Under the pieces are notes generated by a model. That model did not search any database. It was given only the letters and a program-made list of their open reading frames with translations, and was not told the origin of the DNA. From Prorocentrum cordatum (taxonomy: Eukaryota), in contig CAUYUJ010000315.1 of the NCBI GenBank assembly GCA_963575745.1, forward strand, positions 62,001 through 115,464: DNA of 53,464 nucleotides, written 5' to 3'. Numbering within the stretch: position 1 is the stretch's first letter; every line of letters begins with the position of its first letter. Both the position numbers and the translations under genes were made by a program. Shown here one piece after another: positions 4,865 to 35,275 of this stretch.

Positions 4865-5000
4865 CGCGTCGTGGAAAAATCACGACGAGAAATGTTCGGC
4901 TGTTCTCGGCCTCCGGGGGCTCTCGACGGGTCTCGGGACCGTCGAAAAATCGACTCGGGATGAAAAACGGGCCCTGGAGAAAGAAAGGGTCGGGGCTTCG
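4865..5000. mobile_element. One arm of a dispersed foldback/MITE family (family R/F)
   Basis: Similar to 21422-21600 and to the reverse complement of 7790-7930, 10560-10720 and 11700-11850. Confidence 0.65.
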
Positions 5001-6524: not shown

Positions 6525-6611
<87 letters not shown>

Positions 6612-11699: not shown

Positions 11700-11850
11700 A
11701 CCCTCAGAGATCTCGAGAATCTCGACCCATCCCAGGGGACTGGCTTTTCATCCCGAGTCGTTTTTGTTCACGGCCCCGAGGCCGAGCGAGGGTCCCCCGA
11801 GGCTGAAAACACCGAAATACCTCCCGCCGCGCTGCTTTCATGACCCGAGA
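11700..11850. mobile_element. Arm of foldback family R/F
   Basis: TCATCCCGAGTCGTTTTT..CGGCCCCGAG matches the reverse complement of ~4930-4965. Confidence 0.55.
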
Positions 11851-17622: not shown

Positions 17623-19548
17623 ATCCGCCGACCCCTTGTGGGTCTCTAGGCGTGTGAGACAGTTCCCCCCCATATTCCCCCCCACCCCAGGGACCCCAAA
17701 CCGGAGATTTGACCCCCCCCCTCGCCGACGACGAGCGCGTCACGGGGCTTTTCTGGGCCCACAAGGGGCTCAAGACGAGCCAAGAAGGCTTCAAGACGCT
17801 TCCAAGACGGCCCACGAGGGCCCCGAGACGCCAAACGAGCGCTCCAAGACGCCCAAGATGGCCCAAAGACGGGCTAAGAGGCCTCCTAGACGGCCCAAGA
17901 GGTCCCCACGAGGCCCCAAGAGGCCTCCAAGATGCGTCCCAAGAGGGTCCTTAAACGCAGAAGTTGGCACATTCCCTTCGTAAAACGTATATTTTTCACA
18001 TATTCGCCTGTTGGGCTTTCCGATGCTCCCAGACGGCCCCAAATGCCCCCAAGACCGCCCCAAGACGGCCCAAGAAACCTCAAAGAGGGTCCCAAGATAG
18101 CCCAAGAGGGCCCCAAGACGGCCCAACAGGCGTCCAAGACGGCCCAAGAGGGCCCCGAAGACGGCCCCAAGAGCGCTCCAGGAGCGCTCCAAGTGGCCCC
18201 CAAGAGAGCTCAATATGGTCCCAGACGGTCCAAGAGCGATCGAAGACACCGAAGATGGCCTCCAGACGGCCCAAGATGCCCCCAAGAGGCCCCAAGAGGC
18301 ATCGAAGATGCGCCCCAAGAGGGCCTCTAAACTCAAAAAGTTGGCCCGCCCCCCTCGTAAAACGTGGACTCGTTCCATAAATTCGCCTTTGGGGCTTTCC
18401 GACGCTCCCAGACGAGACCGCACCAGGACGGTCCAAGAAACCTCTAAGAGGGCCCCAAGACAGCCCAAGAGGGCCCCAAGACGGCCCAACAGGCGCCGAA
18501 GACGGCCCAAGAGAGCCCCGAAAACGGCCCCATGAGCGTTCCAGGAGCGCTCCAAGTGGCTTCCAGGAGAGCTCAACATGGTCCCACACGGCCCAGAAGC
18601 GATCGAAGACACCCGAGATGGCCTCCAGCTGGCCCAAGACGCCCCCAAGGGGCATCCAAGATGCGTCCCAAGAGGGTCCCCACACGCAAAAAAATGCTCA
18701 TTTCCTTCGTAAAGCGTATATGTTGCACGACTTCGTCTCGTGGGCTTTCCGACGCCCCCGAAGACCGCCCCAAGACGGCCCAAGAGGCCCCCAAGACGGC
18801 CCCACGACGGCCCAAGATGGCCCCAAGACGGCCCAAGAGGTCCCCAAGACGGCCCAAGAAGGCCCCAAGACAGCACCAAGAGGGGCCCAAGAGGGCAACC
18901 AAAAATTCAAAAATCTAGCTTTCTGCCCCCACGAGCCCCAGAGGGCCCCAAGAGTGCCCCAAGAGGCCGCCAGAGGCCCCCAAGAGGCCGCCAAGACGCC
19001 CCAAGGAGCCCCCAAGAGGCCCCCAGGAGGCCCCCCAAACACCCCCAGACGCTTCCGTATTGCGAGCCGTCAAGCCAACTGCAATGCACTCCGCGCATAC
19101 AACCTTACTCTTCCTCGCGACGTGCTCACTATCTTGCTGGGCGCTAAGGTGCTGCTGCCGCGCGAACTGTTTCGTGCGCGCTGCGAACGTCAACAGCCTC
19201 TTCACCCGTTTCGACTCATCTGCCACATCTTTCGCGGTGATGCCTCGCTGATCACAGCTTCCGCACGCTACTCTTGCTCCGTTCGTCTTCCGGTGGTCCT
19301 CCACTTGGTTGCGGGTCGAAAGGCCGACCTCCTAGAAGGACACCCCGCACCCGGGTGCACAGCACGGAAGGCGCTCGCAAAACACGCCCCAGACCACCGG
19401 CATCACGCAAACATTTGGACCCCCTACGTATCTGCCACCACCCGCGCGCGACACCGCACCCTCACACAAAACGCCGCTGGCCAGAAACTCCTGGCCTCGC
19501 AACACTCACACAAGGGGTCGGCGGATGTGGCGTAAGCCTGTAGAATCA
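17623..19548 (+). mobile_element. Non-autonomous Helitron2/Helentron-like element with asymmetric inverted repeats, containing CCAAGA(C/G)GGC satellite
   Basis: 5' ATCCGCCGACCCCTTGTG (17623-17640) is a perfect inverted match to CACAAGGGGTCGGCGGAT (19509-19526), followed by hairpin GGC-GTAA-GCC and AGAATCATT; same architecture at 36139-37668. Confidence 0.55.
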
Positions 19549-21421
19549 TTACATCGCACCAGACTTATGGGCGTCGGTGGTCTAGGGACCTTTCCCTTAC
19601 AACCATTTCTTTCCCGTCGGGGAGGAGTTTACCCCTCCCCTTTACCCCCTCCCCTGGACTTGGACAGGGGGGTCCGCGAGGGGTTGGAGCGTTCAAGATG
19701 GCCCAAGACGGCTCCAAAAATGCCTCAGAGAGCCCAAGATGACCTCCAAGATGGCTCAAGATTTTTTTTGGAGAAGAAGGAGGGGCAAACAGGAGGGGAC
19801 GACCGCAACAGCACTCGAATCACCTGTGCACTCCGTGGCGACACGCGGCAGAGATTGACCAGCGGCCTCATTTACAACCACATCCAAGAAGTAAAAAGGC
19901 ATTGGCGAGAAGAACTGAAATGGCCGGCCGCGTAGACGTCACCACATTCAGGGGGAAGGGGAAGAGGAGGGGGTTGACGACGAGGAGGAGGAAAAGGAGA
20001 CGAGAACGGACAGTGGCGCTGTGTGTGTGTGCATAAAACCCCTATGGCCCCAGCGACCATTTATATAATGAGGCCTCACAGAACAACTCAAGACAGGAAC
20101 CCGCAGTGCATACCAATTTGAAGACCATGCGATGGCGTGGCAGAGAGAAAGCATCCCCAGATGCCTATGAAGCGAGAAGCAGAGGCGGGAAAGGGGAGGG
20201 AGGCGGAAAGCAGAAGGCGAGAAGGAGGAGGAAGAAACACACGATAACTAACTTGAAGCTCCTGGCATGCCCGTGAGCACGGGTGGCAAGCAGTATTGCA
20301 CTAAATCTGGGCGCGGGGCACGCGTCAGAGTAATGATGCAACGTAATGAAACTAGGGCGGCCGTGAGAGAGCCAAGCCCCGCCCGGAGCACTGTGCAAGC
20401 CTAAGGCGGACCCTGGGAACCCAGGGTGGCGGCCTACAAGGTCGGGCAGTACCGGGCGAGGAAGCGGCCTCGACCTGGATGCAAGCAGTGCCACTGCACC
20501 AATCCGGAGAAAGACCAGGGGGGGGAGGGAAAGCAGCTGCGCGCTCGTGCCGAGCGTCCTGGGGCAAAACTGTGCTGACTGCAGCGCCCTGGGGCGACCT
20601 AGTTAAACGGTCGTTTTTATTACATATATATATATATATGAAGAAATAGAGAGAGAGAGAGAGAGAGAAAAAAAAAAAAGAGAGAGAGATTGAGATTGAG
20701 AGGGAGAGAAAGAGAGAGAGAGAGAGAGAGAGACAGGAGGCCGAATGCCAGCCGCTTGGGCAGCTGCGCGACGCGCCGAGCAGCAGCAGGGGTGAGAAGA
20801 GTGGCCCAGTCAGGGCTCCCGTGCCGGTAGAGCTCGAGCGCAGCTTCGCGAAGCAGAACGGGAGGGCCCCGCCAGTCGAGCTGCCGAGGAGCGACAGCGA
20901 GGTCGGGACACACACCCGAGAGGCCAGACCGCGGGCCGGGCCCCCGGCCGAAGGGCTCAAAGTAGAACCGCCTCTCCCGATCCGAGGCGCGCGCCTTGCG
21001 ACCCAGCTGCGCGACCACCGACCAGAGCCACATCCGGAGCCACCTGCGCCAGGGCAGAGTGAGAGAGTGAGAGAAAGTGAGAGAGAGAGAGAGGGAGAGA
21101 GAGGTTCGCCTGCGCCCGCTGGAGGAGGGAACTGCCTTCGGGCCGGAGCTCGCCCCATTCGCTGGCGCGCCTGCGTGCCTGGCGCTGCCCGTGGATGGAC
21201 TGGTCGCTCCGAGCATCGCTCGAGCAGCAGGCGGGCCCGGCGCCTGGAGGCGCGGGAGGCCTCGGGGAGGGCGCCGCCCCCGCCCGGAGAGGCAGGAGCG
21301 CGCAGCGCCAGTCGAGCGCCCCCTCCTGCCGACAACCCATCCCTCGAGTGAGGTCGGCCACCGCGCGGCGCTTGCGCCTCTCGGAGCCAGCGCCGCGCGC
21401 GACCGCCAGGCTCCAGGTGGA

Positions 21422-21600
21422 GACCCAGACATGATGGCGTCGTAAAAAAATCCGGACGGGAGGTTTTTCGCTATTTTCGGCCCATGGGGGTCCTCGCCGG
21501 GCCTCGGGGCCGTCAAAAAACGAATCATGACGAAAAACCGGCCCCGGGGAAAGGGTCTGGACTTCCAGGGGCGCCGTCCTGAAAAAAATCAGGACGTCGC
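21422..21600. mobile_element. Half of foldback family R/F, ending at its apex where the RdRp sequence begins
   Basis: Ends ...ATCAGGACGTCGC as at 10517-10530. Confidence 0.65.
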
Positions 21601-23103
21601 ATGTCTGGGGAGCCTGGCCCCAGGGCCGAAGGAGTCGGAGGCCCAAGGGTGGGGCTGCAGGGTGGTGGAGGGGGGGAGGAGCGGGCAGGCTGTCCAGCCC
21701 TGGGAGGTGTAGATGACCTTCAGGTGCTCGGCGGCGTCGGCCCCGACGATGCCCTTCTCGGGGTGGCCGATCCCCAGACGCTCAAGCTGTCTGAAGTAGC
21801 GGGCGGCGCCCTCCGGGTTGGCGAAGCAGGCGAGCAGGTCGTCGCCGAGCACGGCCTCCTCCACGGCCGTGGCGCTCACGGTCTCCAGGAGCGCGAGGTG
21901 CAGGGCCCAGGGGAGGATGCTGTCCAGGCCCTGGGTGGCACGCCACCCGGAGCCGACCCCCCGGTCGGCCGTGAACGCTTCGCCCCCAGCGGTGAAGCGC
22001 GCGGCGTGCAGGACGTGGAGCCCGTGGTCCAGGGCCTGCTGCCACTCCGCCTGCGTGCTGCCAGCCTCCCCTGGCAGCCGCCCCACCAGCATGGCCAGCA
22101 GCCGGTGGGCCCTCTCGACTGTGCCCCACCGAGGCAGCTGGTCGAACTTCTTGGTGTCCGCTGAGATGCAGCCGCACTTGCCGCGCAAGCGTCGGACGAT
22201 CCGCTCCCGGCGCGCGAGCGAGTCGGCGCTCGTCTCCCAGACGACCGGGAGCACGCCCGGGAGGACCCGCTCCATGCGCTGGAGGAGGTAGCCCTCCCGG
22301 AGGGCGACCTGGGCCAGCGAGGGCACCGCGTCTCTCCACTTGCCCGTCTCCCTCTTGACGAGGGAGCGCACCGCGGGAGGGGCGAAGTCGTCGGGAAGGC
22401 GCCAGCCGTGGCCGCACCCACCCTCCGCCAGCAGCCCGAGCCACCCGGCACACTTGGTTCCCTCCAGGGCAGAGGCGCCCTTGGAGAGAGCAGCACCCTC
22501 AGGCGTTCGCAGGGCCGACTTCCCGAGCGAACCCGCTGTTCCCCACTTGCCGGAGAGGACGAACTCGCCCCAGGGCACCCACGGCTGCCCTCCCGGCTGG
22601 CCTCCACGATAGCGGCCCTCCATGATCGCGAGCCCCCTGTGGAACAGCCAGTTGACCTCCCGAGCCTGGGCCCGGGCCAGGCCGGGTTGGTCAGGGCCGA
22701 CCAGCCAGCGCCTCAGCCTTTCGAGAGTCAGCTTGCCGTCCTTGTCGGTCCGGGCCGGATCGGGCATCGAGCCGAAAAAAGTGTCGAGGCCTTGAACGAA
22801 CCATATCCAACCCCCGTCCGGCAGACGGGAGTCGGCCTGGTCCCTGTGCTTCCAGAAGGCGCCAACCTTGCCGAGGATGCATTTTAAGTGGTGGGTGGAG
22901 GAGGAGGAGAGCTCGGCTTTGAGGAAGAGGCGTTGGGCGTCAGCGCGAACGGGAGAGGGCGTGACATCGAGGATCAGAGCTAGCCGCGCCTCCACAACTG
23001 GGTGGGGCCAGCCACGACGCGTCCAAGGGAGGAGCTTGAGGAGGGCCGGGGGGGGGGGCGGTAGGAGTGGGGCGGGCAGGAGCGGAACCACTCTTCGCTC
23101 CAC
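21589..23103 (-). pseudogene. Endogenous viral element: toti-/giardiavirus-like (Ghabrivirales) RNA-dependent RNA polymerase, C-terminally truncated; probably extends 5' to 23307 via a frameshift
   Basis: Motifs in the correct order: WGTAGS; motif F KRETGKWR (~22332-22356); motif A DTKKFDQ (~22138-22158); motif B GSGWRATQGLD (~21920-21955); motif C GDD (21838-21846); HPEK; AEHLKV; LQPHPW. Confidence 0.88.
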
Positions 23104-23307
23104 TCCACCTGCCCAGGGCTTACGGAGGGGGGAGTGAGCCAGACCTCGTTGTAGCCCCGCTGGACCTCGTCTGCGGCGCGGTCCAGCGGGCCCAGGCCCT
23201 ACTCAGCAGTGGTCCGCCCGCTCGCAGCGAGCGTGCCGTGCGGGTCTGCCAAATGCCGCCGTCGCCTTCGAGATGGGCGTCCGCCCCCTGCCAGACCGGT
23301 GCCCCTC

Positions 23308-24270
23308 GGGAGAGCATGCTACGCATGGAATGAATTGAATAGAAGATGAGGTGTTGGATCCGTGAGTGGATCAGCCTAGACAGTATCATGGTCAGAGGCT
23401 TTGATGCCTCCATTGATTGTGGGTCGGCTATGATGCCAGCCAATGCCCACCCCGTCCCGTATCCAGGGACTTCGCATTCCCCTTTGATGGCAGGATGGGG
23501 AGACGGTCCGCCACCCCCGGCACTGCACGTACTGTGCCGGGTTCGTGGGGATTTTGTTGAATTCTATGAGTGTCCCCTCCCTCCCCTCCCCGCCCCTCTA
23601 CCTCCGCGCCTGGTCCTGTGAGTGGGGAGCCAAGTAACGTATACACCGTTTTGACTCCGAGTCCCGGTGACGATCACAACCTGCAGAGCTTGCACGAGTT
23701 TGCACGAGTTAAGACCAAAGGGTTACCAGGTAAGGTCTGCAGGCGGGAGGTCTGGACTAAAGGGCTACCAACTAGACGTCTGAAGTGGGAGGTCTGGACC
23801 AAAACGTTACCGGTCAGAGCTAGCCCAAGGGTGAAAGGCAGGAGTGACGAGGGGGTAGGGCCTTTTCTGACCGCGAGCCTCTACCAACCCAGTAAGTATA
23901 TGTTGGGGCCTACCCACCTCACATGCATCACAGCCGAGGTGGCCAGTGGCGCGTGCCTTCACGAGCCCAGCTGTCAAACACTGATACAGAGTAGCCCGAA
24001 ACCCCAGTCAAGTGGTCCCGGAACGCGCGCAAGGCCTCGGAGCGCAAGTTGTCCGGAAAAGTGTACTGGGCCACGCGCGCCACGATGCCTAGGATGATAC
24101 CCCGCTTCGTGCTGTCAGGGATGAAGCTGTAGTAGGGCGAGAAACCTTCAAACTCAAAGGCGCCGCCCCTGCCCCCAAGATGTCCGATCGAAGGGCATGC
24201 CTCCACGCTGCCGTCCACGTTAAGCTTAAGGTCAACACCTACGAACTTGAGGCTATCATCTCGTTCGAGC
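23308..24270 (-). repeat. 3' pLTR copy (RT C-terminus + 620-bp 3' UTR)
   Basis: About 19 substitutions vs 28692-29654 counted by eye (~98% identity), constant offset 5384. Confidence 0.95.
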
Positions 24271-26534
24271 GGAAGGGGGTACCGCTCTCCTGCCCGTTGT
24301 GCCAGGCTGCTGGCAATCAGCCCGATGTCCCAAGCCTTCAAGTAGGAAGGGCCTTCCCAAAGAAGGAGGTAACCGTCCATGTACCGCACCTCGAGAAGCC
24401 ACACCACGTGGCCCAAGATCACGGTCTCATATACGCGGCCCCTGCATCCCAAGGGGGGGAGTTCAGGGCCATGCAAGGAGTAGTAGAAGGGAAGGTCGCG
24501 TAAAATTAGCGCCATCCGGGCAAGCGCTGAGCCCATGGGGCCCCCCATCGCCAGGCTCTCCACCTCCATCCCCACCAGCTCCCCCAGCATGAAAAAACCG
24601 GTGCAAAGGTGATGCCGTATAAGCACATCAATGTCATCAATAGTGATGGTCATGCACTGGCCGTGAACTCGGGATGGAGGCGCCCCTGCTGATGATGCTG
24701 CGCGCCTGCCGCGGCGCGCCACGCGGATAGCCTGGATCGACCCTTGCAGGGTAGATCGGTAGAAAGACCAAGCCCGAACGATGAGCTCGTGGGGCACGTT
24801 CGTGAAACAACTGACGACGTCGGAGCCGCATGCTCGGACCGGGGTCGATGGTCCGATCTCGGTAAACTCGCGGAGGAGCTCGATGACGGAGTCGGCCCTG
24901 TGGATGTCAATATGGGCATGCTGTGGGAGGTGGCAGGCCCCGACCCAGTCCAGCGCCCGAGCCGTTGGCGTGTCGAGGCATGCCGCAGGCCACGCCGAAC
25001 GGTTGACGACGGGTCGGCGGTCGTCTGGCTTCGCCCTTTTCTTGTTGGGGGCGCTTGCCCGGGCCATCTTCCAAGCCGATGGCCTGCTGATGCGCCTGGG
25101 CTGCAGTTCCGGCGAGAGCCCAGGAACGTCGGCTGCACGTAGCAGAACGGCCTCCGCAGTGAGGTCGGGGAAGTACCGGTAGTGCGGGCCCGCCCCGTCA
25201 GCCCCAAAAAGTTCATGGCATAGTAGCTGAACTCGCCGCGGGCACTCGGCGACCATTACCCGTCGCGTTTTCTGGAAGGTCTCAATGACGAGGCCCCTCA
25301 GGGAGCGCCGCATCTCGGCCACCTCCGCGTGCGTGATCGGTACAAAATCGAGGCTAGAGGGTGCAAGACCTGCCGCCCCGCAGTAGGTATCCGTCGCCCG
25401 CGCCGCCATCTGCTCCAGCGGCCCAGCGTCCATCCCCATCCCAATGGTCGCAGCCAGGCGTTTGGTGAGCTGGGTGAAACTCTTAAGCAGAATGCTGCGC
25501 TCAGGAACGATCGCAACGTGAGCAGGGGCCGTCCGTAGACGGGACTGGTCGTTATGCCGCGGCCATGTCTCCTGCGGGGCAAAAATGTGGAACTGCCCGT
25601 CCGGCGACTCGACCCGGGGAAGCGCCGGGAAGGCATCGCACAGGCACTCCCATGGTGCCGTCTCGTGAGGCCGTGCGTAGAAGCGCGGCGCATTGCGAAG
25701 TGCCCTGCCAAGCGCGGTGGCCGGACGTGGTGCCACGCCGATGCGAAGGTGGCGCAGCGCTGGCAGTAGCAGGCCGTAGCCGCGCGAACGGCAGTGGACA
25801 ACCATGTCTGATAGTAGTGAGCGTGCCGCCCGCCGGGCGTTCCTGCGTGGAAGCCATGGCAAGCGTACGTGAACCGACGCGCGGGGTCTTGGCCAGCCCC
25901 GGAAGCGCCGAACGCGGTCCAGGAAGATAAGCCCCATGCGACGCGGTGGCCCCTCCGCCACTCGGTGGACTCTGCTCCAGATGGCGTAAAACTCCGCCGG
26001 CGAGACCTTGAAGATATGCCGGCGGCACTGGCCAGACGTAGGTGAGCCGAGCGTGTTGCAGGCGCCGGCTGCCCACCAGCGGACCACATCAGCGCCCTTC
26101 TGCGCGCCGCTCCCTTCTCGTAGCGATTGGGGAGTGTCCTGAGCGAACTTGCGGTGCTGAGTTGGCCGCGCCGGAGGTGTGGGAGGGCAGTAGGTGTAGT
26201 ATTGGCGGGGCCGCCGCCCGCGTGGCCCCTGACTGTCCAGGAGTCGCTGTACGTATGGCTCATTCAGTGGAGGGTGCATCGTGTCTATGACGTGCCTTTC
26301 CAATGCCAAGAGCTCTGCGTCGTCCTGGGCGCGACCGATGGGCGTGAAGATTAGCGACGAAGAAGCCTTTGGGAGGTCGCCCCCAAAGAGAGCTGAGAGA
26401 AAGAGCATGTACGGTTGTGGCCTGTAGTTGCCTGGATAGAGTAGTCCCTGTAGGTGTCGGCGCACGCGGGCTTGGAAGTCGACCGTCTTGCCAACGTAGT
26501 AATGCTTATGCCAGGGACTCCATATTATGTACAC
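23928..26534 (-). CDS. PLE ORF2: GIY-YIG endonuclease + CxC..H linker + reverse transcriptase (catalytic YMDD appears as YMDG)
   Basis: VYIIW..YYVGKT..RVRRH..LE..I...HPPLNE; WECLC...FHIF; RPVVN; SDVVSCFTNVPH; LAMGGPMGSALA; RYMDG; LKFVGVDL. Confidence 0.88.
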   Translation of the reverse strand: MYIIWSPWHKHYYVGKTVDFQARVRRHLQGLLYPGNYRPQPYMLFLSALFGGDLPKASSSLIFTPIGRAQDDAELLALERHVIDTMHPPLNEPYVQRLLDSQGPRGRRPRQYYTYCPPTPPARPTQHRKFAQDTPQSLREGSGAQKGADVVRWWAAGACNTLGSPTSGQCRRHIFKVSPAEFYAIWSRVHRVAEGPPRRMGLIFLDRVRRFRGWPRPRASVHVRLPWLPRRNARRAARSLLSDMVVHCRSRGYGLLLPALRHLRIGVAPRPATALGRALRNAPRFYARPHETAPWECLCDAFPALPRVESPDGQFHIFAPQETWPRHNDQSRLRTAPAHVAIVPERSILLKSFTQLTKRLAATIGMGMDAGPLEQMAARATDTYCGAAGLAPSSLDFVPITHAEVAEMRRSLRGLVIETFQKTRRVMVAECPRRVQLLCHELFGADGAGPHYRYFPDLTAEAVLLRAADVPGLSPELQPRRISRPSAWKMARASAPNKKRAKPDDRRPVVNRSAWPAACLDTPTARALDWVGACHLPQHAHIDIHRADSVIELLREFTEIGPSTPVRACGSDVVSCFTNVPHELIVRAWSFYRSTLQGSIQAIRVARRGRRAASSAGAPPSRVHGQCMTITIDDIDVLIRHHLCTGFFMLGELVGMEVESLAMGGPMGSALARMALILRDLPFYYSLHGPELPPLGCRGRVYETVILGHVVWLLEVRYMDGYLLLWEGPSYLKAWDIGLIASSLAQRAGERYPLPLERDDSLKFVGVDLKLNVDGSVEACPSIGHLGGRGGAFEFEGFSPYYSFIPDSTKRGIILGIVARVAQYTFPDNLRSEALRAFRDHLTGVSGYSVSVFDSWAREGTRHWPPRL

Positions 26535-26869
26535 GACAAATTCAGCATGCAGGAGGTCCGGCGACGGTGGCCATTAGAGGATGGGAGTGAGGATGCAAGT
26601 GTGCGGAGCTTGCTGTAGAAGGCGGTGGTGGAGGACATCAGGAAGGGTGCGGTGAGAGCAATGCCCATGCGAATGAGTGCAAAAATGCATGGCCATACGA
26701 AGACATTCTCGGCGTACACGCTGTGGAGGGCATGGCGGACCAATGCCAGAGAGGTGATGTTGCAAAATCGGACCTCAGGGGTTCTGGAAATGCATGGCAC
26801 CCCGTCGTCGTGAAGATCCCAAACACCACCGCTTGCGCGGTGCGCTCCTGCGCGTGTACGGGAAGATAG

Positions 26870-28401
26870 TCAAATCTCTGTCGAACGCGTCTTGGCCATG
26901 ATGGCCGCCAGGAGCTGCGACAAGTCCCCCAATCGCTTCTCGTCGAAGCGAACGCCGAGCTCGGACGCCTTGTCCTTGAAGACCGCGAGGACCTTCGGGT
27001 CTGGCTTCTTCGACCGGCCCTTGGGCGCCACGATGGCATCGAGCGCCTTGCGGTAGACTGCAAAGCGTTGCCGATCCGACGCTGGGGAGTCCTCCGTCGG
27101 CACGGCCTCGTCCATGGCCCAGTCGATAGTCTTCGTGTTCCTGGCCTGGTGCACGCGGTCAGGCTTGAACTTTTTGATGTCGTCGAGCGTGTACTGGGTG
27201 ACCGTCTTCTGGGGTGCCCGACCCCCTCCTGAGAGTGCCCGGAGCGTGTGAGCCGACGCAGGCTGCGCCTCAGGGATCGCCTCCGTAGCCTCGACATGCG
27301 CCTGGCCCTGGCCCGCAAGAAGGGCGGCGACCGTGTGGGTCATGTTGGACAGGCACTCGCCTGACGTGGACTGCTCGGCTCGTTTGCACGGGCTCTGGGT
27401 CGAGATCCAAGCTAGGAGGACCGAGAACGAGAAGGTGTCCGAGTCGAGGGTCACGAACGGCACAATATTTTGCAGGTTGCGCCTGGCTTGCGCCCGCATG
27501 ATGTAGGGGCAATGCTCTTCGGCGTTCTGGGAGATCTCCCTCCGGGTCTTGGCGGTGCACAAGGAGATGCACCTGCGCATCATCTCGGCGTTGCATTTCT
27601 TGCGCTCATTGATGAAGTCCTCCGTGCCGAACGGGATGTCGGGCTTGTAGTCGGGGGGGAGGGCGTAAGCCGTCTCCAGAAGCTTAGATGCAACGGCGCC
27701 CCCCGAGAAGAGTAGCTCGCGGACCTCAATGTCGGACAGCTTTTGGATGGCACTCTTGGCGGCCTGCACCCCGCTCTCCGGCGCACCGACGTGGTTGGGT
27801 GGGTAAGCCTGGCCTTGCCCGTGGTCCCTGGTGGCTGGGAGGTCGCGGGGGCCACGGGGGTCCTGTTCCCGGCGCGGAGCCCGATCGAAGTACTGGGCAC
27901 CGTGGTGAGGATCATACTGCCGGCGGGATAGGCCAGCGGCAGGTGGGGCGACCGCGCCGCCGGCGATGCCTTCGGCGTCAGCCCGTGCGCCATCCTGGGG
28001 GCAGCCCCGATCGGCGAGGCAGGCGGTGGCTTCCTTGGGAGTCCGGGGCTTTGCGCAGGGCAGTCCCTGGCGAGGTGTCCGCGGATGCCACAGTTAGGGC
28101 AGAGCAGGCGGTCTGGTGAGAGGGGCCGGGTGGGGGCCTCATGGTGGCCACCCGTGGTCCGCGGCATGAGCCTGTGATGGTCACGTGCCCTGGACCTGGA
28201 CCTAGACCTATGATGGTCGCGGCCCATCCCCGCCGCGGGCCTGTGATGGCCCCGTGCGATGGGTTTGGACCTAGACCTATGATGGTCACGGCCCGACTTT
28301 GCCCTATGATGGGAAGGTTGGTCGCGGTAGAGGTCGTCACGGTAGCCCTTGGGGTCGAAGTCGCCCTTCGCCTGACGCTGCCCATGTCCACGGTCCGCCA
28401 T
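26870..28401 (-). CDS. PLE ORF1: R/S/H-rich N-terminus, CCHC zinc knuckle (CPNCGIRGHLARDC, 28060-28101), helical C-terminal region; one frameshift at ~27930-28050
   Basis: ATG at 28401 (MADRGHG); second frame open from 28093 to the TGA at 26870-26872. Confidence 0.65.
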
Positions 28402-28691
28402 GCTGCAAGCGAGTCTCCTGCGGCGCCGCTTGGGGGGGTCCTGTGAGCGAGGTAAGTCGGAAACCTGTACCCTTGGGCAGAAGAGGCGGTGGAGAGGGGA
28501 AGCGGGAGGGGAGGGGGAAGGAAGGGCGACAGAGGGGAGAAACAGAACAGGAGGGGGAGAGAACGAAGAACGAGCCAGGATGCAGGAGCAACGAGGCCCT
28601 CCCATTCCCTTTGAATTCAATGAGTTCTATGAATTCTATGACAGGCACTGGACGGCCGGCAGGGGACTGAGTCCCGTTCACGGCCCAATCA

Positions 28692-29654
28692 GGGAGAGCA
28701 TGCTACGCATGGAATGAATTGAGTAGAAGATGAGGTGTTGGATCCGTGAGTGGATCGGCCTAGACAGTATCATGGTCAGATGCTTTGATGCCTCCATTGA
28801 TTGTGGGTCGGCTATGATGCCAGCCAATGCCCACCCCGTCCCGTCTCCAGGGACTTCGCATCCCCCTTTGATGGCAGGATGGGGAGACGGTCCGCCACCC
28901 CCGGCACTGCACGTACTGTGCCGGGTTCGTGGGGATTTTGTTGAATTCTATGAGTGTCCCCTCCCTCCCCTCCCCGTCCCTCTACCTCCGCGCCTGGTCC
29001 TGTGAGTGGGAAGCCAAGTAACGTATACGCCGTTTTGACTCCGAGTCCCGGTGACGATCACAACCTGCAGAGCTTGCACGAGTTTGCACGAGTTAAGACC
29101 AAAGGGTTACCAGGTAAGGTCTGCAGGCGGGAGGTCTGGACCAAAGGGTTACCAACTAGACGTCTGAAGTGGGAGGTCTGGACCAAAACGTTACCGGTCA
29201 GAGCTAGCCCAAGGGTGAAAGGCAGGAGTGACGAGGGGTTAGGGCCTTTTCTGGCCGCGAGCCTCTACCAACCCAGTAAGTATATGTTGGGGCCTACCCA
29301 CCTCACATGCATCACAGCTGAGGTGGCCAGTGGCGCGTGCCTTCACGAGCCCAGCTGTCAAACACTGATACAGGGTAGCCCGAAACCCCCGTCAAGTGGC
29401 CCCGGAACGCGCGCAAGGCCTCGGAGCGCAAGTTGTCCGGAAAAGTGTACTGGGCCACGCGCGCCACGATGCCTAGGATGATACCCCGCTTCGTGCTGTC
29501 AGGGATGAAGCTGCAGTAGGGCGAGAAACCTTCAAACTCAAAGGCGCCGCCCCTGCCCCCAAGATGTCCGATCGAAGGGCATGCCGCCACGCTGCCGTCC
29601 ACGTTAAGCTCAAGGTCAACACCTACGAACTTGAGGCTATCATCTCGTTCGAGC
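28692..29654 (-). repeat. 5' pLTR (5'-truncated tandem copy of the PLE)
   Basis: Direct repeat of 23308-24270; 4-nt GAGC microhomology with the flanking 45-bp duplication at 29651-29721. Confidence 0.95.
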
Positions 29655-30188
29655 ACGCCCCGGGTCGCGTGCGCAATCGGCGGGCCCCGCCCCGGGAGCA
29701 CGCCCCGGGTCGCGTGCGCAACCGGGGGCTCCGCCGAACCCCGGGAACCTCTCCAGAGCACGTAGCGCCAGTCCTGGCTCGGCACCTGCGGGGGCATGAG
29801 CGGGCAGCGTGATTGCCAACAAAAAAGCGCCCCGTGGGGAAGCGTGAAAATGGCGCGCCAGCCACTCCGTAAACGGACGGTGCGACCTATTTTCTCCGAA
29901 ATGCGCACGCCAACGAAACGTGCAATTGCCCCAGACGCGGGTAAAACGGGGGGCAGGAAAGGGAGGGAGGGAAGGAGGGAGGGAGGGGGGGAGGGGGGAA
30001 CGCCACTGCCGAGCGCTGAAATCCGCGCCGTGCTTGGAAACAATGGCACGAGCCGTCGCGGGGAGACCGTCGCGTCCAGTGCGCGGCGCGCGGCCCCGGA
30101 GCGCTACGGCAGGTTTGCCAAAAAGTCCACGGCCTGAGACGCCAACCCCTGGGGGGGCCGCAAGCCCGCGGGGAGGCCGGGAACCGCC

Positions 30189-30240
<52 letters not shown>

Positions 30241-30261
30241 CGACCGACGACCGACGACGAC

Positions 30262-30293
<32 letters not shown>

Positions 30294-30558
30294 AACAACG
30301 ACGCCAACGACAGGGGAGGAGGGGAGAGGAAGGGAGAGGAGGGCAAGAGGAGAAGGGGGAAGGGGGGAGGAGAGGGAAAGGAGCGGTCCCCTGCCCCCCA
30401 AGGGCTTGAGGCCCCCAGGGGGGACGCGGGTGGCGCGCGGCTGACGTCGCTGCATAACCAGGCGGGCGGCCAGCATTCAAGGAGGAAAGGGAGGAGCTGA
30501 GGAGAGACGGAGAGGCGGGGATAGGAAGACGTGCTTGCAAAACTGCAAATCAACCCCA

Positions 30559-33430
30559 CTAACCTAGGGCTCGCTGGGAGGCAGGGTGCCCCCTAACGAG
30601 CTCGCGAACGCACTGGGGCAACGCCTCGCGCGCTGCTGGTCCAGCACCAACGCCGCCGTGCCGGGAAAGACGATGCACTTTGTACACAGCTGCGGTGCGC
30701 AACGCCTTGCGAACGAGAAGCCCTGGCTCAGCCGTCACGCGGCGGAGCGGCATGTCCAACAGCAAGAAGCAACTCGTGCAATCTCGGCGGGACCCCGGGC
30801 GGCGGAGCCCCAGCGAGGTCTGCGCAAACCGCCGCGCGGTTGGGCACGCCGCGTAGTGCTCGATGGAATCTGGGGCAGCGGAACCGCGGAATATGCATAG
30901 GTCCAGATGATGGCATCGACCTTGCATGCGTCGATATGAAGCCCACCCATTCCACAAAGAGCACCAGACAGCCGCCCATGTGCGAGGAGTGACCCGCGCT
31001 CCGAGCTCGCTGAGGGCCGCGAGGCAGCGCTCCGCCCGGCAGCGGGGGAATTGAGAGACGTCCCACACTATGAGTTTGTGACGAGTGCGCCACTCCATTC
31101 GGGACTAGACACCCCTGGGCAAGGTGGCGAGGGCGGCCCGCTGAAAACCACGTCGCGCTGCGGCTGCCGTGCTGCTGCAAAAGGGGCGGAGCTCGCCGCG
31201 CGCCAGCTCGCCTTCCGAGGCTTCGGGGCGAATCCCACTGGCCGCGAAGTGCGCCGCCGCGGCCTCGAGATGAAAGACGAACGATCGCTGAAACCACGAC
31301 GGCCAACGCGCAATGCGATCCAAGTGCTCCGTATCCCGCATGCACAAGCGCAGCTCACGCGACCGCTCGGCCACGCGAAGGCCGTCGGGCTGGCCTTCCT
31401 GGTGCGCCACCCGGAAGCGGCAGGCCAGCGAGAGCCTCGCAGCGTCGGGGAAGTCCTTCGTGAAGCCGAACCCCCGCAAATCGTGTAGATCTGCAGGAGT
31501 GCACCAGAATCCAGGGCCAGGGACGAGAGCTCGGAGAGCCGCAGCTTCGGTTTGCCCCCACGCAGGCGGCAAGTTGCCCAGTTGCAACAAGAACGCAATA
31601 ACCGGGATAATGTACACGCTGTACGCCAACGCGGTAAGGAGTAGTCCGCCTCCCGCGGCACCCCAATCCCGAGAGCGTTCGAGGACCTTCTTGAGCGGCT
31701 TCGTGAAGGCGAGATCGCCGCGTTCTGGGCCGAGTACAAATCCCAAGTGCTTCGCATGCAGCTCCACCTTGATGCCTGCCCACGCCGCGAAGCGCTCGGA
31801 TACAAATCTGGCCAGAAGAGTTGTGCTTGAGGTGAGAACGGCACGATCACCGTCTTCGGCAAGTTTAGCCGAAGGCCAGATATGCGTGAGAACTCCTCGG
31901 AGACCCCGACCAGCGTCGGAAACGCCGCAATGCCCGAGGGGAGCACAACGGCAACGTCGCCCGCGCAGGCGCGCACAATCGCCCCCGGCACGAGGCGCTG
32001 TATTCGACGAAGCAAGACATCAACAGCAGCTGCGAAAAGAAGGAGCGAAAGAGGGCAACCTTGTCGTATACCTGCCAAAAGCTCGAAGCCGTCGTGCTCC
32101 CTGCCGCCCACTACCAGCGTGCACTTGTTGTGCGCGTACAGCGCTGCCTCGAAGTTGAGGACCCACTGAGGCAGGCCAACGGCAGCGAGGGCCTCTCGCA
32201 GAAATGCATGGGCTACGCTGGGAAACGCAGCCTTGAAGTCGAAGGAGACTGCCAGGCCAGCGTCGTCGCGAAGAGCCGTCTGCATCACGGCGAGGTCAAC
32301 ATCAACAACGTTCGCAAGCATCGAGCGGCCGCCGACGAACCCGCGCTGGCAGCTGCAGATCCACGAGGCCAGCGGAGGCTCGATTCTGAGCCGGATGGCG
32401 TTGGCGAGGAGTCACTGTCTACGATGTTCAAAGGGCGGGTGTCCAGGGTCGTAGTATTCTCCAACGTCTGCATCTGTCCCAGTAGGCGCCTTGGGCAGAA
32501 ACACCATCAAGCTGCTGTTGAAACCGGTGGACACGTCGGATCCACGGAGGAAGTCGCCCAGAGCTGGAGAGCCAGGGTCCGTCGCCACGCGTTGAAGAAC
32601 CTTGAACAAAATGTCCACGGCCACTGGGCCCAACAGTCTCCAGGACAATAAGGGAATTCCATCCGGCCCAGGCGCGGAGTCTGGAGATGAATCCAGAGCT
32701 GCTTGCACATCGCCCTGGCGGGGCTGCCGCGCCTGATCTCCTGGCGGGGGGAGACCGTCGGAAGTTGCGTCTTCCTGTAGCCACCGCCTCAGCGCCTGGC
32801 GATCCACCCGGCACGACGCAAACGTAGCCGACCAGTGACTACGAAGAGCATCCGCCATCGCCTCTGGGTCCGTGACGACCTCGCCGCGGGCGTTCCGCAC
32901 AGCAGGCAACGACGTCGGCCTGCCCGGGGAGAGTCCACGAAGCATCTGGAACAATCGATCTCGTCTGTGGCCCCGCGTGGGGTCCGCAGCAGCAGCCCCG
33001 GACAGCTCCGCAAGTTGCCCGACGGCGGCTTCGCGCGCCAGGCCCACGGCGCGCTGGCGGAACGGACCGAGACCGGCGCCCCGGAGACGCAGCAGAGCCA
33101 TTGGGTCAGCAACCAAGGTCTGCAAATGCGGGTACAGCCGCAGACATCGACGCATCTGGCCTGCGCGGCCATCTTCAACCGCCCGTGCAAACCGCACCGC
33201 GAGCCCAACTTTGTCGTCAACCTCTGGCGGGGCCACGCCGGCCCGATCCCTCCCGGCAGCCATGCGGTCCGACACTGTCCGAATAGCCTGCTTCAACAAC
33301 TGCAAGCAGCGCAAGGGGCACGACGGTTCGGCATCCTGCCCGACGAGCTCGTGGAACTCCTCCGCCACCCGGCCAGGCCACGCAGGACCACGAAGCAGGT
33401 GAGCAGGCACTGGACGAGGCTCGTCTCGTT
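30559..33430 (-). pseudogene. LINE ORF2 linker + RT + C-terminal zinc-knuckle region, several frameshifts
   Basis: SAPGPDGIP; VFLPK; RPLNIVD; QRGFVGGRSM; FDFKAAFPSV; GIRQGCPLS; CAGD (decayed YADD); GLRLNLPKT; KHLG; DSIEHYAAC. Confidence 0.88.
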
Positions 33431-34130
33431 CACGGGCAGGGCGAAGACGTCCAACAGTTCGCTGTTGGTCGAGCTCACTTCGCCGGCCACTCTCCACGCT
33501 GTTTGGCATCTCTGCGAGGAGGCCGTCAACACCAAGGCCAAGATGGTGACAATCCGCACCGCCGTCGACACAGAGCAATGGCGGGAAGTGATGAACCAGA
33601 CGATCACGGACGACGCCGCCAGCGCCATCTTGAGGGTCCGTTATCGCCCTTCTCGGCGGGGCGGCCGGCTGTGGGCTTCGCCCTCCGCTACTCCTCAGCA
33701 GCTCGCGGCCCTCTGCCGCAAAGGCGCCGGGTCGAGCCAGCAGCCCAGTGGGCATACGGTCTCAACGTTGACAGTCAATGGCTTCCTTGGGCACGATCCA
33801 GCTCGTATCATCAGGGGTCTCATGGCGGTGATTCGGGACCGCTCGGGCGTGAACTTGAGGGGGCAGAGCGCGGGGGGCGAGCTGATCAACAGCTGGCGAC
33901 GGGTGGCGGACGTCGACCCCTCTGCGCACCCAGGCCAGGTTCGATTGTAGATCGCTTCATTAAACGACGCCCAGGCGGTCCTTGATGATGTCAACGGTCG
34001 CGCCGTGCAGCTGGGTACGGATCTGGTCAGCGTCAGCATCACCAACGACGAAATCGAGACGCAGCAAGGAAACGTCCATCGGGGGCGGGGTCGCCGGGGC
34101 CCTGTCCCCGGGGAGCGACGCCCGGCTTGA
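33430..34130 (+). pseudogene. C-terminal part of LINE ORF1 (inverted segment), one internal TAG at 33948-33950
   Basis: Protein-like frame (SLLVELTSPATLHAVW...VSVSITNDEIETQQGN) directly upstream of the APE ORF. Confidence 0.6.
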
Positions 34131-35275
34131 GCCCAACGGAGACGCTAATTGAGGTCTACACCATGGCCGGCTCCCGGTTCTGGATGTTGGATCTCGTTTT
34201 GCATGCTCGTCGCATTGACCATGGCGACGTTCCTCTTTGCATTCGTCCTCTTTCTCCTCATTTGCTACGTGCTCGTGCTGCTCATCTCCACGCCTGTGCC
34301 GATGCAGGCGCTGACACGCATGGTGGACTCGAGGCCGACGTGTCCTCGGCGACGCGGCTGCCCTCAGTGCCTCCTGCGCGTCCTGCGCCACGCCTGCGTG
34401 GTCGACGAGTACCCCGCCCCCCGCCGCTGCCGCCAGGACAGGCGAGGCTACCTGGCAGCGGGGGTCTTCCCAGCGGCGACGCACGCCCCGCCGAGCATGG
34501 GCTGGTGATGGCCCCCTTCCGCGGAGAGCTCCAGGGCGCTGCCTGGAATACCCAGGCCCTCTTCGCTCGGAAGCGGTCCCGCCACATGGCCAAGGACCAC
34601 TACGTACGACGGCTTTTCCGCGATCGGGACTTTGTGCTGCTGTCCGAGACCCATGGCCTGGAGCGCGAGGGATTGGCGTGGGGTTGCCCAGGAGACAGCC
34701 GGGCATGGTTCTCCCCGGGCACTTCGCGCAGAGCCGGAATCGGCATCGTGGTCAAGTCAAGTTTCCTCCAGCAGTTCGACTCGGAGCTGACGTCGTGGGA
34801 GGAGCTGGTCCCCGGGAGGGCTGGCGTACTTCATCTGGCAGGCCCGCGAAGCGCGTTGGATTTGTACTCCGTGTACTTCACTGCCGGGTCGCACGCCTCA
34901 GGCGTCGTGCAGCCCCGCGGCACCACCGCCCAGGACGTCTCCGAAGCGCAGGCTCGCCAGCAGCGGGAGGCCATGCGACGTCGCCCGGCGGCGGCCATGT
35001 CCCCATCGGGTTCGGTGCTGCCGATCGTCGCGGAGGACTTCAATTGGGTGGCTGACGCGCGGGACCGTTACGCCAAGACGACCGCCGAGTACACTGGACA
35101 CAGGGATGCTGGCCACGAGCGGCACTTCCATTCGGTCTTGTCTCAGCCCTATGGGTTGTTCGAGCTCCGGCAGCCGGCGATGACGCAGGAGAACGCCAGC
35201 TCCAGGTCCAGACTCGACCGCATCTATTGGAATCAGCCCTTGGCTGAGCAGCTGGATCGTCGCATCTGCTGCGCT
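34127..35275 (+). pseudogene. LINE ORF2 N-terminus: apurinic-type endonuclease, truncated before the SDH motif
   Basis: AAWNTQAL; VLLSETH; AGIGIVV; VPGR; YSVY; AEDFN; SRLDRIY. Confidence 0.88.

What the first reader, a model, noticed from the sequence alone, without database searches (positions are those of the whole stretch)
21589..29654. Viral RdRp co-oriented with, and joined to, the 3' end of a Penelope-like element: candidate PLE-mediated virus capture
Seen (minus strand): 5'-truncated PLE copy (963 bp), then full PLE (5384 bp), then the RdRp region with no poly(A) or recognisable repeat between 23308 and the RdRp. The far side (29655 onward) looks non-viral and has a 4-nt GAGC microhomology at the truncation. 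Established: PLE partial tandems are thought to arise from RT template jumps, and target-primed RT copies the 3'-most template first. Inference: the RT may have copied viral plus-strand RNA, then jumped to PLE RNA twice. If the PLE had simply inserted into an existing EVE, upstream viral sequence should lie beyond 29654. RNA-virus endogenisation is mostly attributed to LTR elements and L1; a PLE route would be new as far as I know, and read-through transcripts could supply antiviral small RNAs.
Basis: partly seen in the sequence, partly recalled or inferred. Interest (0 to 1): 0.88.

Follow-up and report, generated by a model that had tools for sequence, protein, structure and literature searches.

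The report
Virus polymerase relic beside Penelope-like retrotransposon
A piece of the polymerase gene of a toti-like double-stranded RNA virus sits in a probable dinoflagellate genome directly behind a Penelope-like jumping gene pointing the same way, which could mean that the jumping gene's enzyme copied the virus into the genome, but the sequence alone cannot separate that from two unrelated insertions.

Summary
On the minus strand a 963-bp 5'-truncated copy (29654-28692) precedes a 5384-bp unit (28691-23308) of a retrotransposon with an N-terminal GIY-YIG nuclease, the Naiad/Chlamys type of Penelope-like element (PLE). A toti-like viral RdRp follows in the same orientation.

New points:
It is split by a 186-nt MITE-like insert (21609-21424) and continues to about 21216.
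- Viral homology reaches up to 23111 (E 0.004) in another frame, so only 115-196 nt next to the PLE end are unassigned.
- Relatives are 5-kb capsid-plus-RdRp viruses, so both ends of the viral piece are internal to the virus genome.
- The PLE copy is defective: two frameshifts, and YMDG where the family has YMDD.
- The far side of the PLE shows no viral homology and no codon periodicity, but the capsid homology test is insensitive.
- No target-site duplication frames either the PLE or the composite. No second copy, empty site or bridging read could be obtained.

PLE-mediated capture is neither shown nor refuted. I put independent juxtaposition at about 0.5 and a coupled reverse-transcription event at about 0.3 (0.2 PLE-driven, 0.1 other).

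The parts
28692..29654 (-). 5'-truncated upstream PLE copy (pseudo-LTR), 963 bp. Its first 4 nt (29651-29654) are a microhomology with the flank.
   Evidence: 98.0% identical to 23308-24270 (19 mismatches, 0 gaps)
23308..28691 (-). One 5384-bp PLE unit, defective. The 5' end is at 28691 and the 3' end at 23308 (...GCATGCTCTCCC).
   Evidence: Tandem junction 28692/28691. Contigs of runs X1 and X2 cross this junction by 30 nt (table 8, records 7 and 15). Family contigs carry one extra base after 27921 and after 26574 (table 4).
26870..28626 (-). PLE upstream ORF, split here into two frames (28626-27580 with a CCHC zinc knuckle at 28101-28057; 28093-26870).
   Evidence: zf-CCHC PF00098, 4.7e-5. 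table 4 (+T after 27921 in X1, X3, X4). The frame arithmetic is mine.
23928..26573 (-). PLE ORF2, 881 codons. GIY-YIG nuclease at 26537-26442, CxC motif at 25646-25638, RT-like motifs CFTNVPH (24809-24789) and GGPMGS (24545-24528), and motif C RYMDG (24386-24372; the family has YMDD). The family's start Met lies 21 codons upstream in another frame.
   Evidence: PF01541, 1.4e-5; I-TevI/UvrC GIY-YIG fold, TM 0.6-0.7 on the target; 8 homologues, 40-44% identical, 3 labelled Prorocentrum cordatum; consensus
23193..23307 (-). Unassigned spacer between the PLE 3' end and the first supported viral sequence. It may be the last codons of the viral capsid ORF, or host DNA.
   Evidence: No significant periodicity. 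A capsid C-terminal profile ranks this piece 3rd of 1154, E 0.29, which is weak.
22990..23192 (-). N-terminal part of the viral RdRp ORF, read in a frame different from the 537-codon frame (a frameshift lies near 23000).
   Evidence: E 0.0042, rank 1 of 1154; aligned 23111-23022, envelope to 23192. (periodicity p about 0.003 in that frame).
21610..22989 (-). RdRp core with motif A (22158-22141), motif B (21951-21934) and motif C GDD (21849-21832).
21424..21609 (-). 186-nt MITE-like insert with 10-bp terminal inverted repeats and a 2-bp TC duplication. It is a high-copy family.
   Evidence: Depth 2643 in X1 against about 0 for neighbouring unique DNA.
21216..21423 (-). Continuation of the RdRp (the W..RG motif region), in the frame expected after a 188-nt interruption.
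   Evidence: E 0.02; E 0.0015, profile positions 521-563 directly after 517; 10 relatives align co-linearly to 21424-21216
29655..30180 (-). Upstream flank of the PLE. No viral signal. It carries a 26-nt unit twice.

Best explanation
The locus holds an endogenous fragment of a toti-like dsRNA virus. The fragment covers the RdRp ORF from about its start to about codon 600 of roughly 800, and possibly the last codons of the capsid ORF. It lies in transposon-dense DNA of a probable dinoflagellate. Immediately upstream and co-oriented sits a defective N-terminal-endonuclease Penelope-like element with its ordinary partial-tandem pseudo-LTR. A MITE-like element later split the RdRp.

I think the juxtaposition most likely comes from separate events. 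The viral fragment was reverse-transcribed and integrated by some host retroelement enzyme; a non-LTR element is the documented route for the closest relative. The PLE then inserted by target-primed reverse transcription into or just upstream of the fragment's 5' end. Its 3' end joined at the nick and its truncated 5' end joined through a 4-nt microhomology. Any upstream viral part was then lost by a target deletion or by recombination between PLE copies, was never there because the viral copy was 5'-truncated, or appears missing because the flank was misplaced by assembly across the 6.3-kb repeat.

Shown: the parts, their order and orientation, the junction sequences, and the defects. Inferred: the order of events and the enzyme responsible.
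For: The partial tandem with 5' truncation is the standard PLE insertion form (PMC8557442, passages read). Contigs of two runs cross the same tandem junction at family depth, so the tandem itself needs no virus-linked template jump.

Both ends of the viral piece are internal to the genome of its relatives. Of the 20 metagenome loci, 16 carry a long ORF1 upstream of the RdRp ORF, and those nearest the window's RdRp are 4.7-5.7 kb with ORF1 of about 710-820 codons. The piece starts near the ORF1/ORF2 boundary and is lost after about codon 600.

No duplication of 9 nt or more lies at the junctions of either the PLE or the composite. The best local alignment of the upstream flank to 21330-20600 scores 25, below the 95th percentile (27) of shuffles.

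115-196 nt between the PLE end and supported viral sequence are unassigned, so a flush junction is not established.

The locus is transposon-dense: a LINE RT at 31068-32411(-), an APE endonuclease at 33989-35536(+) and the MITE-like insert.

The closest relative of this RdRp (P0001, 33% identical) is fused at its 3' side to the post-RT region of a multi-copy RVT_1 retroelement (78% identity over 45 residues). This is the classical non-LTR template-switch order, with the retroelement at the 3' end.

Known Penelope trans-mobilisation needs pseudo-LTRs on both sides of the cargo (PMC3846280, abstract and passages). No third PLE repeat lies downstream of the RdRp in the window.
Against: The far side of the PLE (29655-30060) shows no coding periodicity, whereas the capsid ORFs of 7 relatives share the periodicity of their RdRps over their whole length (in 2 of the 7 the last 300 nt are flat). 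A simple insertion into a contiguous capsid-RdRp copy is therefore disfavoured, and an extra event or a near-boundary hit must be assumed.

This PLE family looks low- to mid-copy (contig depth 4-60 in X1, against thousands for the MITE-like repeat), which makes a chance landing next to a rare viral fragment unlikely in absolute terms.

The PLE ends at its natural 3' terminus, and both elements point the same way. The 34 codons next to the PLE carry a weak resemblance to the capsid C-terminal motif of relatives (rank 3 of 1154, E 0.29).
Confidence: 0.5

Rival explanations
1. PLE-driven capture. A PLE reverse transcriptase primed at a nick copied a fragment of viral plus-strand RNA. At the fragment's 5' end it jumped to the exact 3' end of a PLE RNA and copied it. 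It then either jumped once more, or that RNA already began in a pseudo-LTR. The 5' end was sealed by a 4-nt microhomology.
For: The virus-proximal PLE end is the same terminal base as at the PLE-PLE tandem junction, so both junctions have the same form (donor 5' end to acceptor 3' end). The two elements are co-oriented. The far side is not coding-like and has no viral hit. Viral sequence is supported to within 196 nt and possibly reaches the junction. There is a microhomology at the 5' truncation. Penelope elements are known to move foreign sequence (PMC3846280).
Against: Initiation would have occurred on an RNA without PLE 3' sequences, whereas the known trans-mobilised cargo is framed by pseudo-LTRs (PMC3846280). 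The viral piece has neither the viral 3' end nor the viral 5' end. No duplication frames the composite. The 115-196 nt at the junction are unassigned. This PLE copy is itself defective (YMDG, two frameshifts), although that may be later decay. No second copy or read-level support was found.
Confidence: 0.2
2. A coupled event not driven by the PLE enzyme. Either a LINE-type RT copied viral RNA and switched to an abundant PLE transcript that began in its pseudo-LTR, so the PLE was a passenger. Or free PLE and viral cDNAs were ligated end to end and captured at a chromosome break.
For: It explains the same junction features as the PLE-driven model. Only one switch is needed if the PLE RNA starts inside the pseudo-LTR, as reported for Chlamys-3_cRei and Penelope (PMC8557442, passage read). 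Non-LTR RTs acted on this virus lineage. A LINE lies co-oriented just upstream.
Against: No LINE 3' sequence or tail follows the viral part. There is no poly(A) at the PLE/virus junction although Chlamys transcripts are polyadenylated (PMC8557442, figure legend read). No target-site duplication was found.
Confidence: 0.1
3. The upstream flank is an assembly mis-join. The PLE-virus junction is real, but the 6.3 kb of repeat was bridged to the flank of another PLE copy, so the true far side, possibly capsid-derived, lies elsewhere.
For: The family is multi-copy and copies are 98-99% alike (tables 3 and 8). PLE tandems are known to trouble assemblies (PMC8557442, passage read). No independent contig bridges either outer junction.
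Against: The 19 differences between the two 963-bp copies and the clean microhomology junction are what a real locus would show. Nothing in the window signals a collapse.
Confidence: 0.1

Closest known systems
Naiad/Chlamys N-terminal-endonuclease Penelope-like elements (Craig et al. 2021, PMC8557442; abstract and passages read)
   Same: [quoted passage not shown]
   Different: The host is a probable dinoflagellate; neither 'dinoflagellate' nor 'alveolate' occurs in that paper's text. There is an additional upstream ORF with a CCHC knuckle. No microsatellite lies at the insertion junctions. RT homology was not demonstrated by Pfam, the PDB or a profile-profile comparison.
Penelope-mediated mobilisation of host genes in Adineta vaga (Arkhipova et al. 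2013, PMC3846280; abstract and passages read)
   Same: Foreign sequence physically linked to PLE terminal repeats and attributed to PLE enzymes acting in trans or to template jumps.
   Different: There the cargo lies between pseudo-LTRs and the whole unit is flanked by a target-site duplication. Here the viral piece lies outside the element's 3' end, with no downstream pseudo-LTR and no duplication.
RNA-virus endogenous elements of dinoflagellates near retroelements (Veglia et al. 2023, PMC10235124; Benites et al. 2022, PMC9651163; passages read)
   Same: RdRp-derived fragments in repeat-rich dinoflagellate DNA next to reverse transcriptases, with integration ascribed to host retroelements.
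   Different: Those derive from +ssRNA dinornavirus-like, narna-like and mononegavirus-like lineages, and LINEs are proposed as the agents. Here the source is toti-like and the neighbour is a PLE. No relic spliced leader lies near the RdRp (the motif was recalled).
Non-LTR template-switch chimeras (U6-L1 type; L1-made bornavirus-like elements). Recalled, no paper read.
   Same: Two RNAs copied into one insertion, with junctions that lack homology or have only a few bases of it.
   Different: In those, the retroelement or poly(A) sits at the 3' end because the enzyme starts on its own RNA. Here the retroelement is at the 5' side. P0001, the nearest relative, does show the classical order.
Toti-like viruses associated with dinoflagellate cultures (Arion toti-like virus, PMC9927876; Triopas ghabri-like virus, 10.1101/2022.05.14.491972; passages read)
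   Same: Totiviridae-like RdRps linked to Dinophyceae.
   Different: Those are exogenous transcripts. I did not compare their sequences with this one.

Membership tests
Penelope-like elements, N-terminal EN+ clade (Naiad/Chlamys) | GIY-YIG endonuclease at the N-terminus of the RT-bearing ORF | tested here: met
   Pfam PF01541, 1.4e-5, residues 13-44; 7 of 9 family members hit it. The N-terminal part of the AF2 model matches I-TevI and UvrC GIY-YIG domains (TM 0.62-0.69 on the target, Foldseek probability about 1, E 0.1-0.3).
Penelope-like elements, N-terminal EN+ clade (Naiad/Chlamys) | CxC motif in the linker between EN and RT | tested here: met
   CLC at residues 310-312. The family consensus reads PWxCxCHL. 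This was read by eye, not scored against the published motif.
Penelope-like elements, N-terminal EN+ clade (Naiad/Chlamys) | RT domain of the PLE/TERT lineage | tested here: inconclusive
   No RVT_1 hit at E up to 0.1 in any of the 9 members. No PDB hit with the profile. hhalign against a LINE RT profile gave probability 0.2. The AF2 model has pLDDT below 50 across most of the RT region. In favour: YMDD is the family motif C, motif-A-like CFTNVPH and GxxMGS are present (their PLE-likeness is recalled), and the nearest Atlas clusters carry HTH_animal and RVT_1 (0.93-0.97, a lead only).
Penelope-like elements, N-terminal EN+ clade (Naiad/Chlamys) | Pseudo-LTR from a partial head-to-tail tandem, with 5' truncation | tested here: met
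   A 963-bp truncated copy directly followed by the 5384-bp unit. The same tandem junction appears in contigs of 2 runs.
Penelope-like elements, N-terminal EN+ clade (Naiad/Chlamys) | [quoted passage not shown] | tested here: met
   There is no cysteine between VYIIW and YYVGKT. Rfam found 0 matches at E up to 1 in 20000-31000.
Penelope-like elements, N-terminal EN+ clade (Naiad/Chlamys) | Insertion bias for microsatellites | tested here: not met
   Neither junction of this copy abuts a microsatellite. One copy cannot test a bias.
Toti-like viruses (Ghabrivirales; Pfam RdRP_4) | RdRp of the RdRP_4 type with motifs A-C | tested here: met
   The frame itself misses Pfam. Its homologues P0002 (8e-18), P0001 (6e-8) and P0005 (4.7e-8) hit PF02123. 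The profile without the window row scores it at 1.2e-48. The profile also hits HCV NS5B and picobirnavirus RdRps in the PDB at about 2e-4.
Toti-like viruses (Ghabrivirales; Pfam RdRP_4) | Capsid ORF upstream of, and overlapping, the RdRp ORF on one segment of about 5 kb | tested here: inconclusive
   This holds for 16 of the 20 relatives' contigs; the other 4 are short or partial. In the window no capsid sequence is detectable, and the test is insensitive.
Retroelement-made chimeric retrocopy (single coupled event) | One target-site duplication (or a matching empty site) around the whole composite | tested here: not met
   No shared word of 9 nt or more lies at the junctions. The local alignment score of 25 is below the 95th percentile (27) of shuffles. 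Duplications are often undetectable for Chlamys and Naiad elements (PMC8557442).
Retroelement-made chimeric retrocopy (single coupled event) | Junction flush between the two templates | tested here: inconclusive
   Viral sequence is supported to 23111 (envelope 23192). The stretch 23193-23307 is unassigned.

The most novel reading that the evidence does not exclude
One reverse-transcription event joined a toti-like virus RNA fragment to the exact 3' end of a Penelope-like element RNA and integrated both together. This would make PLEs, or template jumping onto PLE transcripts, a route by which non-retroviral RNA viruses enter eukaryotic genomes. The same end-to-end jump that builds PLE tandems would be the capturing step.
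Probability: 0.3. Interest if true: 0.75.

Novelty: new member of a known kind. Interest (0 to 1): 0.5.

Why it matters
How non-retroviral RNA viruses become genomic DNA is known for only a few enzyme systems: L1 in mammals, LTR elements in mosquitoes, and LINEs proposed in dinoflagellates. If this junction was made in one event, it would add the third major class of retrotransposon to that list and would tie virus capture to the poorly understood PLE tandem-forming mechanism.

Even on the ordinary reading, the locus records three things:
- a toti-like endogenous element in a probable dinoflagellate;
- an N-terminal-endonuclease PLE family in dinoflagellates, a host group not mentioned in the paper that defined the clade;
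- a sister element fused to a non-LTR RT tail, a concrete handle on which enzymes capture this virus lineage.

Tried and rejected
Own-genome search: no genome is held.

Earlier notes of this scan: nothing on this RdRp or this PLE. They gave only the lead that the genome is a GC-rich dinoflagellate.

Public runs: 12 were listed and no RNA holder was listed. Four runs were laid as contigs. The RdRp is essentially uncovered (22038-22471 at depth 0 in all four) and no listed piece bridges 23307/8 or 29654/5, so nothing can be said about copies, alleles or expression.

IMG/VR scans with P0004 and with the window RdRp found no relative.

Capsid search of the whole window, using single capsids and a 7-sequence profile, gave only noise. 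The control shows the test is blind at this distance.

Search for the last 200 or so RdRp codons below 21216 found no consistent hit. Weak codon periodicity in 21039-20751 (p 0.013) remains unexplained.

Relic dinoflagellate spliced leader (motif recalled): 1 match with 3 mismatches at 19746, against 1.3 expected by chance.

Rfam hammerhead or any other family in 20000-31000: none.

RT fold: the AF2 model was too poor in the RT half, so the fold search returned only the GIY-YIG domain.

Atlas search with the tail of P0001: no usable hit.

ORF1/ORF2 frame-layout argument for the spacer: dropped. Either of the two other frames would fit one of the two layouts seen among relatives (+1 in 9 loci, +2 in 6; my arithmetic on the coordinates).

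Base composition as a clock: GC3 is 0.84-0.87 and the GARP fraction 0.38-0.41, the highest of the 26 RdRps compared. A GC-rich virus and long residence in the host both explain this.

Supplements of the papers cited were not opened.

Full report
**What is there**

All features lie on the minus strand. A self-comparison of the window finds one long direct repeat: 23308-24270 equals 28692-29654. It is 963 bp with 19 mismatches (14 transitions) and no gaps, at a spacing of 5384 bp. Reading the junctions gives three results.
- The upstream copy starts inside the element at 29654.
- That copy ends at ...GCATGCTCTCCC (28692) and is followed at once by the element's 5' start (28691).
- The full unit ends with the same bases at 23308.

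The first four bases of the truncated copy (GCTC on the minus strand, 29651-29654) are also the last four of a 26-nt flank unit that occurs twice, at 29651-29676 and 29696-29721.

**The retrotransposon**

The 881-codon frame 26573-23928 has these features.
- It begins with a GIY-YIG nuclease: Pfam 1.4e-5, and 7 of 9 family members hit the same model.
- The N-terminal part of an AlphaFold model matches the I-TevI and UvrC GIY-YIG domains with TM 0.62-0.69 on the target.

That combination, together with the partial tandem, 5' truncation and absence of a hammerhead ribozyme (Rfam none), matches the published description of Naiad/Chlamys PLEs (PMC8557442, abstract and passages read).

I could not demonstrate the RT half by homology.
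- Pfam RVT_1 gave no hit, and the PDB gave none with the profile.
- hhalign against a LINE RT profile gave probability 0.2.
- The model is poor across that half.

What speaks for an RT is the family motif YMDD, motif-level resemblance that I recall as PLE-like, and Atlas neighbours that carry HTH_animal and RVT_1 (a lead only).

Eight homologues at 40-44% identity exist, three of them labelled Prorocentrum cordatum. Earlier notes of this scan call the genome a GC-rich dinoflagellate (unchecked).

This copy is dead.
- Its motif C reads YMDG.
- Family contigs carry an extra T after 27921 and an extra G after 26574 (table 4).
- By my frame arithmetic, the first of these changes splits the upstream CCHC-knuckle ORF.
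- The second puts the ORF2 start Met, which sits 21 codons upstream, out of frame.

Contig joints 29160->26423 (X1) and 23687->26590 (X3) show RT-deleted derivatives of the family.

**The viral part**

The 537-codon frame 23202-21589 has no Pfam hit, no PDB hit by single sequence and no word-indexed homologue. An exhaustive phmmer search gives 6 hits, the best at 4.5e-19. Three of those hits pass Pfam's cut-off for RdRP_4. A profile of the six, built without the window row, scores the frame at 1.2e-48. The profile of all seven sequences, the window's frame included, also hits HCV NS5B and picobirnavirus polymerases in the PDB at about 2e-4. Motifs A, B and C are intact.

One hit comes from Amphidinium carterae. 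Two others lie on contigs of 39.5 kb and 4 kb.

A metagenome scan returned 20 related loci.
- 16 of the 20 have a long ORF1 followed by the RdRp ORF.
- Those most similar to the window's RdRp are 4.7-5.7-kb contigs with an ORF1 of about 710-820 codons overlapping an RdRp ORF of about 800 codons.
- That is the toti-like layout.

**Limits of the viral part**

Downstream limit. Homology in the long frame stops near 21622. A 186-nt element follows at 21609-21424, with perfect 10-bp terminal inverted repeats and a TC duplication. It has related copies at 10416-10696 and 11724-11826 and very high contig depth. Homology then resumes in the frame expected after a 188-nt interruption.
- The profile positions follow on directly (517, then 521-563), at E 0.0015.
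- 10 relatives align co-linearly to 21424-21216.
- Nothing is detectable for the last 200 or so codons.

Upstream limit. A profile of seven viral ORF2 N-termini finds the conserved W-x-E-x-W-F...Y-R-P-P motif at 23111-23022. This is the top hit of 1154 six-frame pieces (E 0.0042; the next best is 0.46) and lies in a frame other than the long one. Codon-position GC periodicity in 23202-22990 is significant in that same frame (p about 0.003). The first 65 or so codons of the '537-codon ORF' are therefore out-of-frame reading, and viral sequence is supported to 23111 (envelope 23192).

The remaining 115-196 nt up to the PLE are unassigned. A capsid C-terminal profile ranks that piece 3rd of 1154 (E 0.29), and I treat this as weak. 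Mapped onto the relatives, the junction lies near the capsid/RdRp boundary, well inside the viral genome.

**The far side**

No RdRp or capsid profile hits anything beyond 29654. The capsid test has no power, however. A profile of seven capsids misses the capsids of eight relatives whose RdRps score 87-217 bits against the RdRp profile, while this RdRp scores 41 bits.

A composition test is more useful.
- The RdRp shows GC1/2/3 of 0.71/0.54/0.87, with a range of 0.19-0.44 in every 240-nt window.
- The capsid ORFs of relatives share their RdRps' pattern over the whole ORF, although in 2 of 7 the last 300 nt are flat.
- The stretch 29655-30060 is flat, with a range of 0.03-0.08.

The nearest 400 nt on the far side therefore do not look like coding sequence of this virus. 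Further upstream come a (GTC)n tract and a co-oriented LINE.

**Weighing the histories**

For a single coupled event:
- The PLE ends at its natural terminus, the same base as at the PLE-PLE junction.
- The two elements are co-oriented.
- The far side is not viral-looking.
- Viral sequence comes to within 196 nt of the junction and perhaps reaches it.
- The family is not abundant (contig depth 4-60, against thousands for the MITE-like repeat), so a chance landing is improbable in absolute terms.

Against a single coupled event:
- The enzyme would have had to start on an RNA that lacks PLE 3' sequences. In the one documented case of Penelope moving foreign genes, the cargo is framed by pseudo-LTRs and a target-site duplication (PMC3846280). 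No third PLE repeat follows the RdRp here.
- The viral piece has neither end of the virus.
- No duplication frames the composite or the PLE alone, though these are often invisible in this clade (PMC8557442).
- The tandem is the ordinary PLE form and is seen at family depth in two runs.
- The junction is not proven flush.
- The upstream flank could be mis-joined across 6.3 kb of repeat.

The nearest relative of this RdRp, P0001, is fused at its 3' side to the post-RT region of a multi-copy RVT_1 element (78% over 45 residues). That is the classical order for a non-LTR enzyme switching from its own RNA to viral RNA, and it shows that other retroelements do capture this lineage.

A rough count of expected chance juxtapositions against expected capture events scales with PLE activity on both sides and comes out within an order of magnitude of parity. 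Clustering of transposons and viral relics in repeat-rich DNA favours chance. I therefore give independent events about 0.5, a coupled event about 0.3 (0.2 PLE-driven, 0.1 other), and an assembly problem about 0.1.

**Literature**

Three full-text searches combining Penelope or Penelope-like with endogenous viral elements, non-retroviral, or template jump/switching returned no paper proposing PLE-mediated endogenisation of an RNA virus. I judged this from titles and abstracts, and from the two passages that hold the terms. This covers the held library only.

Dinoflagellate RNA-virus relics near retroelements are in print (PMC10235124 and PMC9651163, passages read). So are toti-like viruses in dinoflagellate cultures (PMC9927876 and 10.1101/2022.05.14.491972, passages read). 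I did not find a toti-like endogenous element of a dinoflagellate described in those four papers. No supplements were opened.

**Verdict**

The capture idea stays open and is testable with the organism's full assembly and long reads. As it stands, this is a new member of a known kind: an RNA-virus relic beside a retroelement, with an unusually suggestive junction.

Noticed in passing
window 21424-21609; also 10416-10696 and 11724-11826: A 186-nt MITE-like element with perfect 10-bp terminal inverted repeats and a 2-bp duplication. It is very high-copy in four public runs (depth 2643 in X1). Two copies form an inverted pair around 10531.
   Followed up: partly
window 23687-26590 and 26423-29160 (contig joints): Contigs of runs X1 and X3 join across the RT ORF of the PLE. 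RT-deleted, presumably non-autonomous derivatives that keep the upstream ORF and the 3' end therefore exist. This fits the higher depth of 26.4-28.7 kb and 23.3-23.8 kb compared with the RT region.
   Followed up: partly
window 26870-28626 (-): The PLE carries a long upstream ORF with a CCHC zinc knuckle (28101-28057), gag-like. It is split in this copy by a 1-nt difference from the family contigs.
   Followed up: partly
protein P0001 (298 aa, 3954-nt ENA contig): The closest relative of the window's RdRp is a chimera. The RdRp is truncated just after the W..RG motif and continues in frame into the post-RT region of a multi-copy RVT_1 retroelement (78% identical to P0024 residues 249-293).
   Followed up: yes
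window 19000-19867: An extremely high-copy repeat (depth about 4000-6800 in X1). Its flanks in other copies are tandem CAAGATGGCT-like units that end in GGCTCAAG, reminiscent of the 3' end of the dinoflagellate spliced leader (recalled). The single window match, at 19746, is at chance level.
   Followed up: no
window 29651-29721: The flank next to the truncated PLE copy holds a 26-nt unit twice, 45 nt apart, and the second copy overlaps the PLE by the 4-nt microhomology. It might be the 30-40-bp 'tail' extension described for Naiad and Chlamys insertions.
   Followed up: no
window 30559-33761 (-) and 33989-35536 (+): A LINE with an RVT_1 domain is co-oriented with the PLE and the viral piece, and its ORF ends at about 30559 ahead of a (GTC)n tract. 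A second LINE fragment with an APE endonuclease lies on the other strand. Neither is repeated in the window.
   Followed up: partly
window 20751-21039 (-): Weak codon-like GC periodicity (p 0.013) lies downstream of the last detectable RdRp homology, between two (GA)n tracts. It could be decayed RdRp C-terminus.
   Followed up: no
window 28644: Two X1 contigs follow the PLE 3' end and the first 48 nt of the 5' start, then diverge. There is either a variant 5' region or an alternative terminus in some copies.
   Followed up: no
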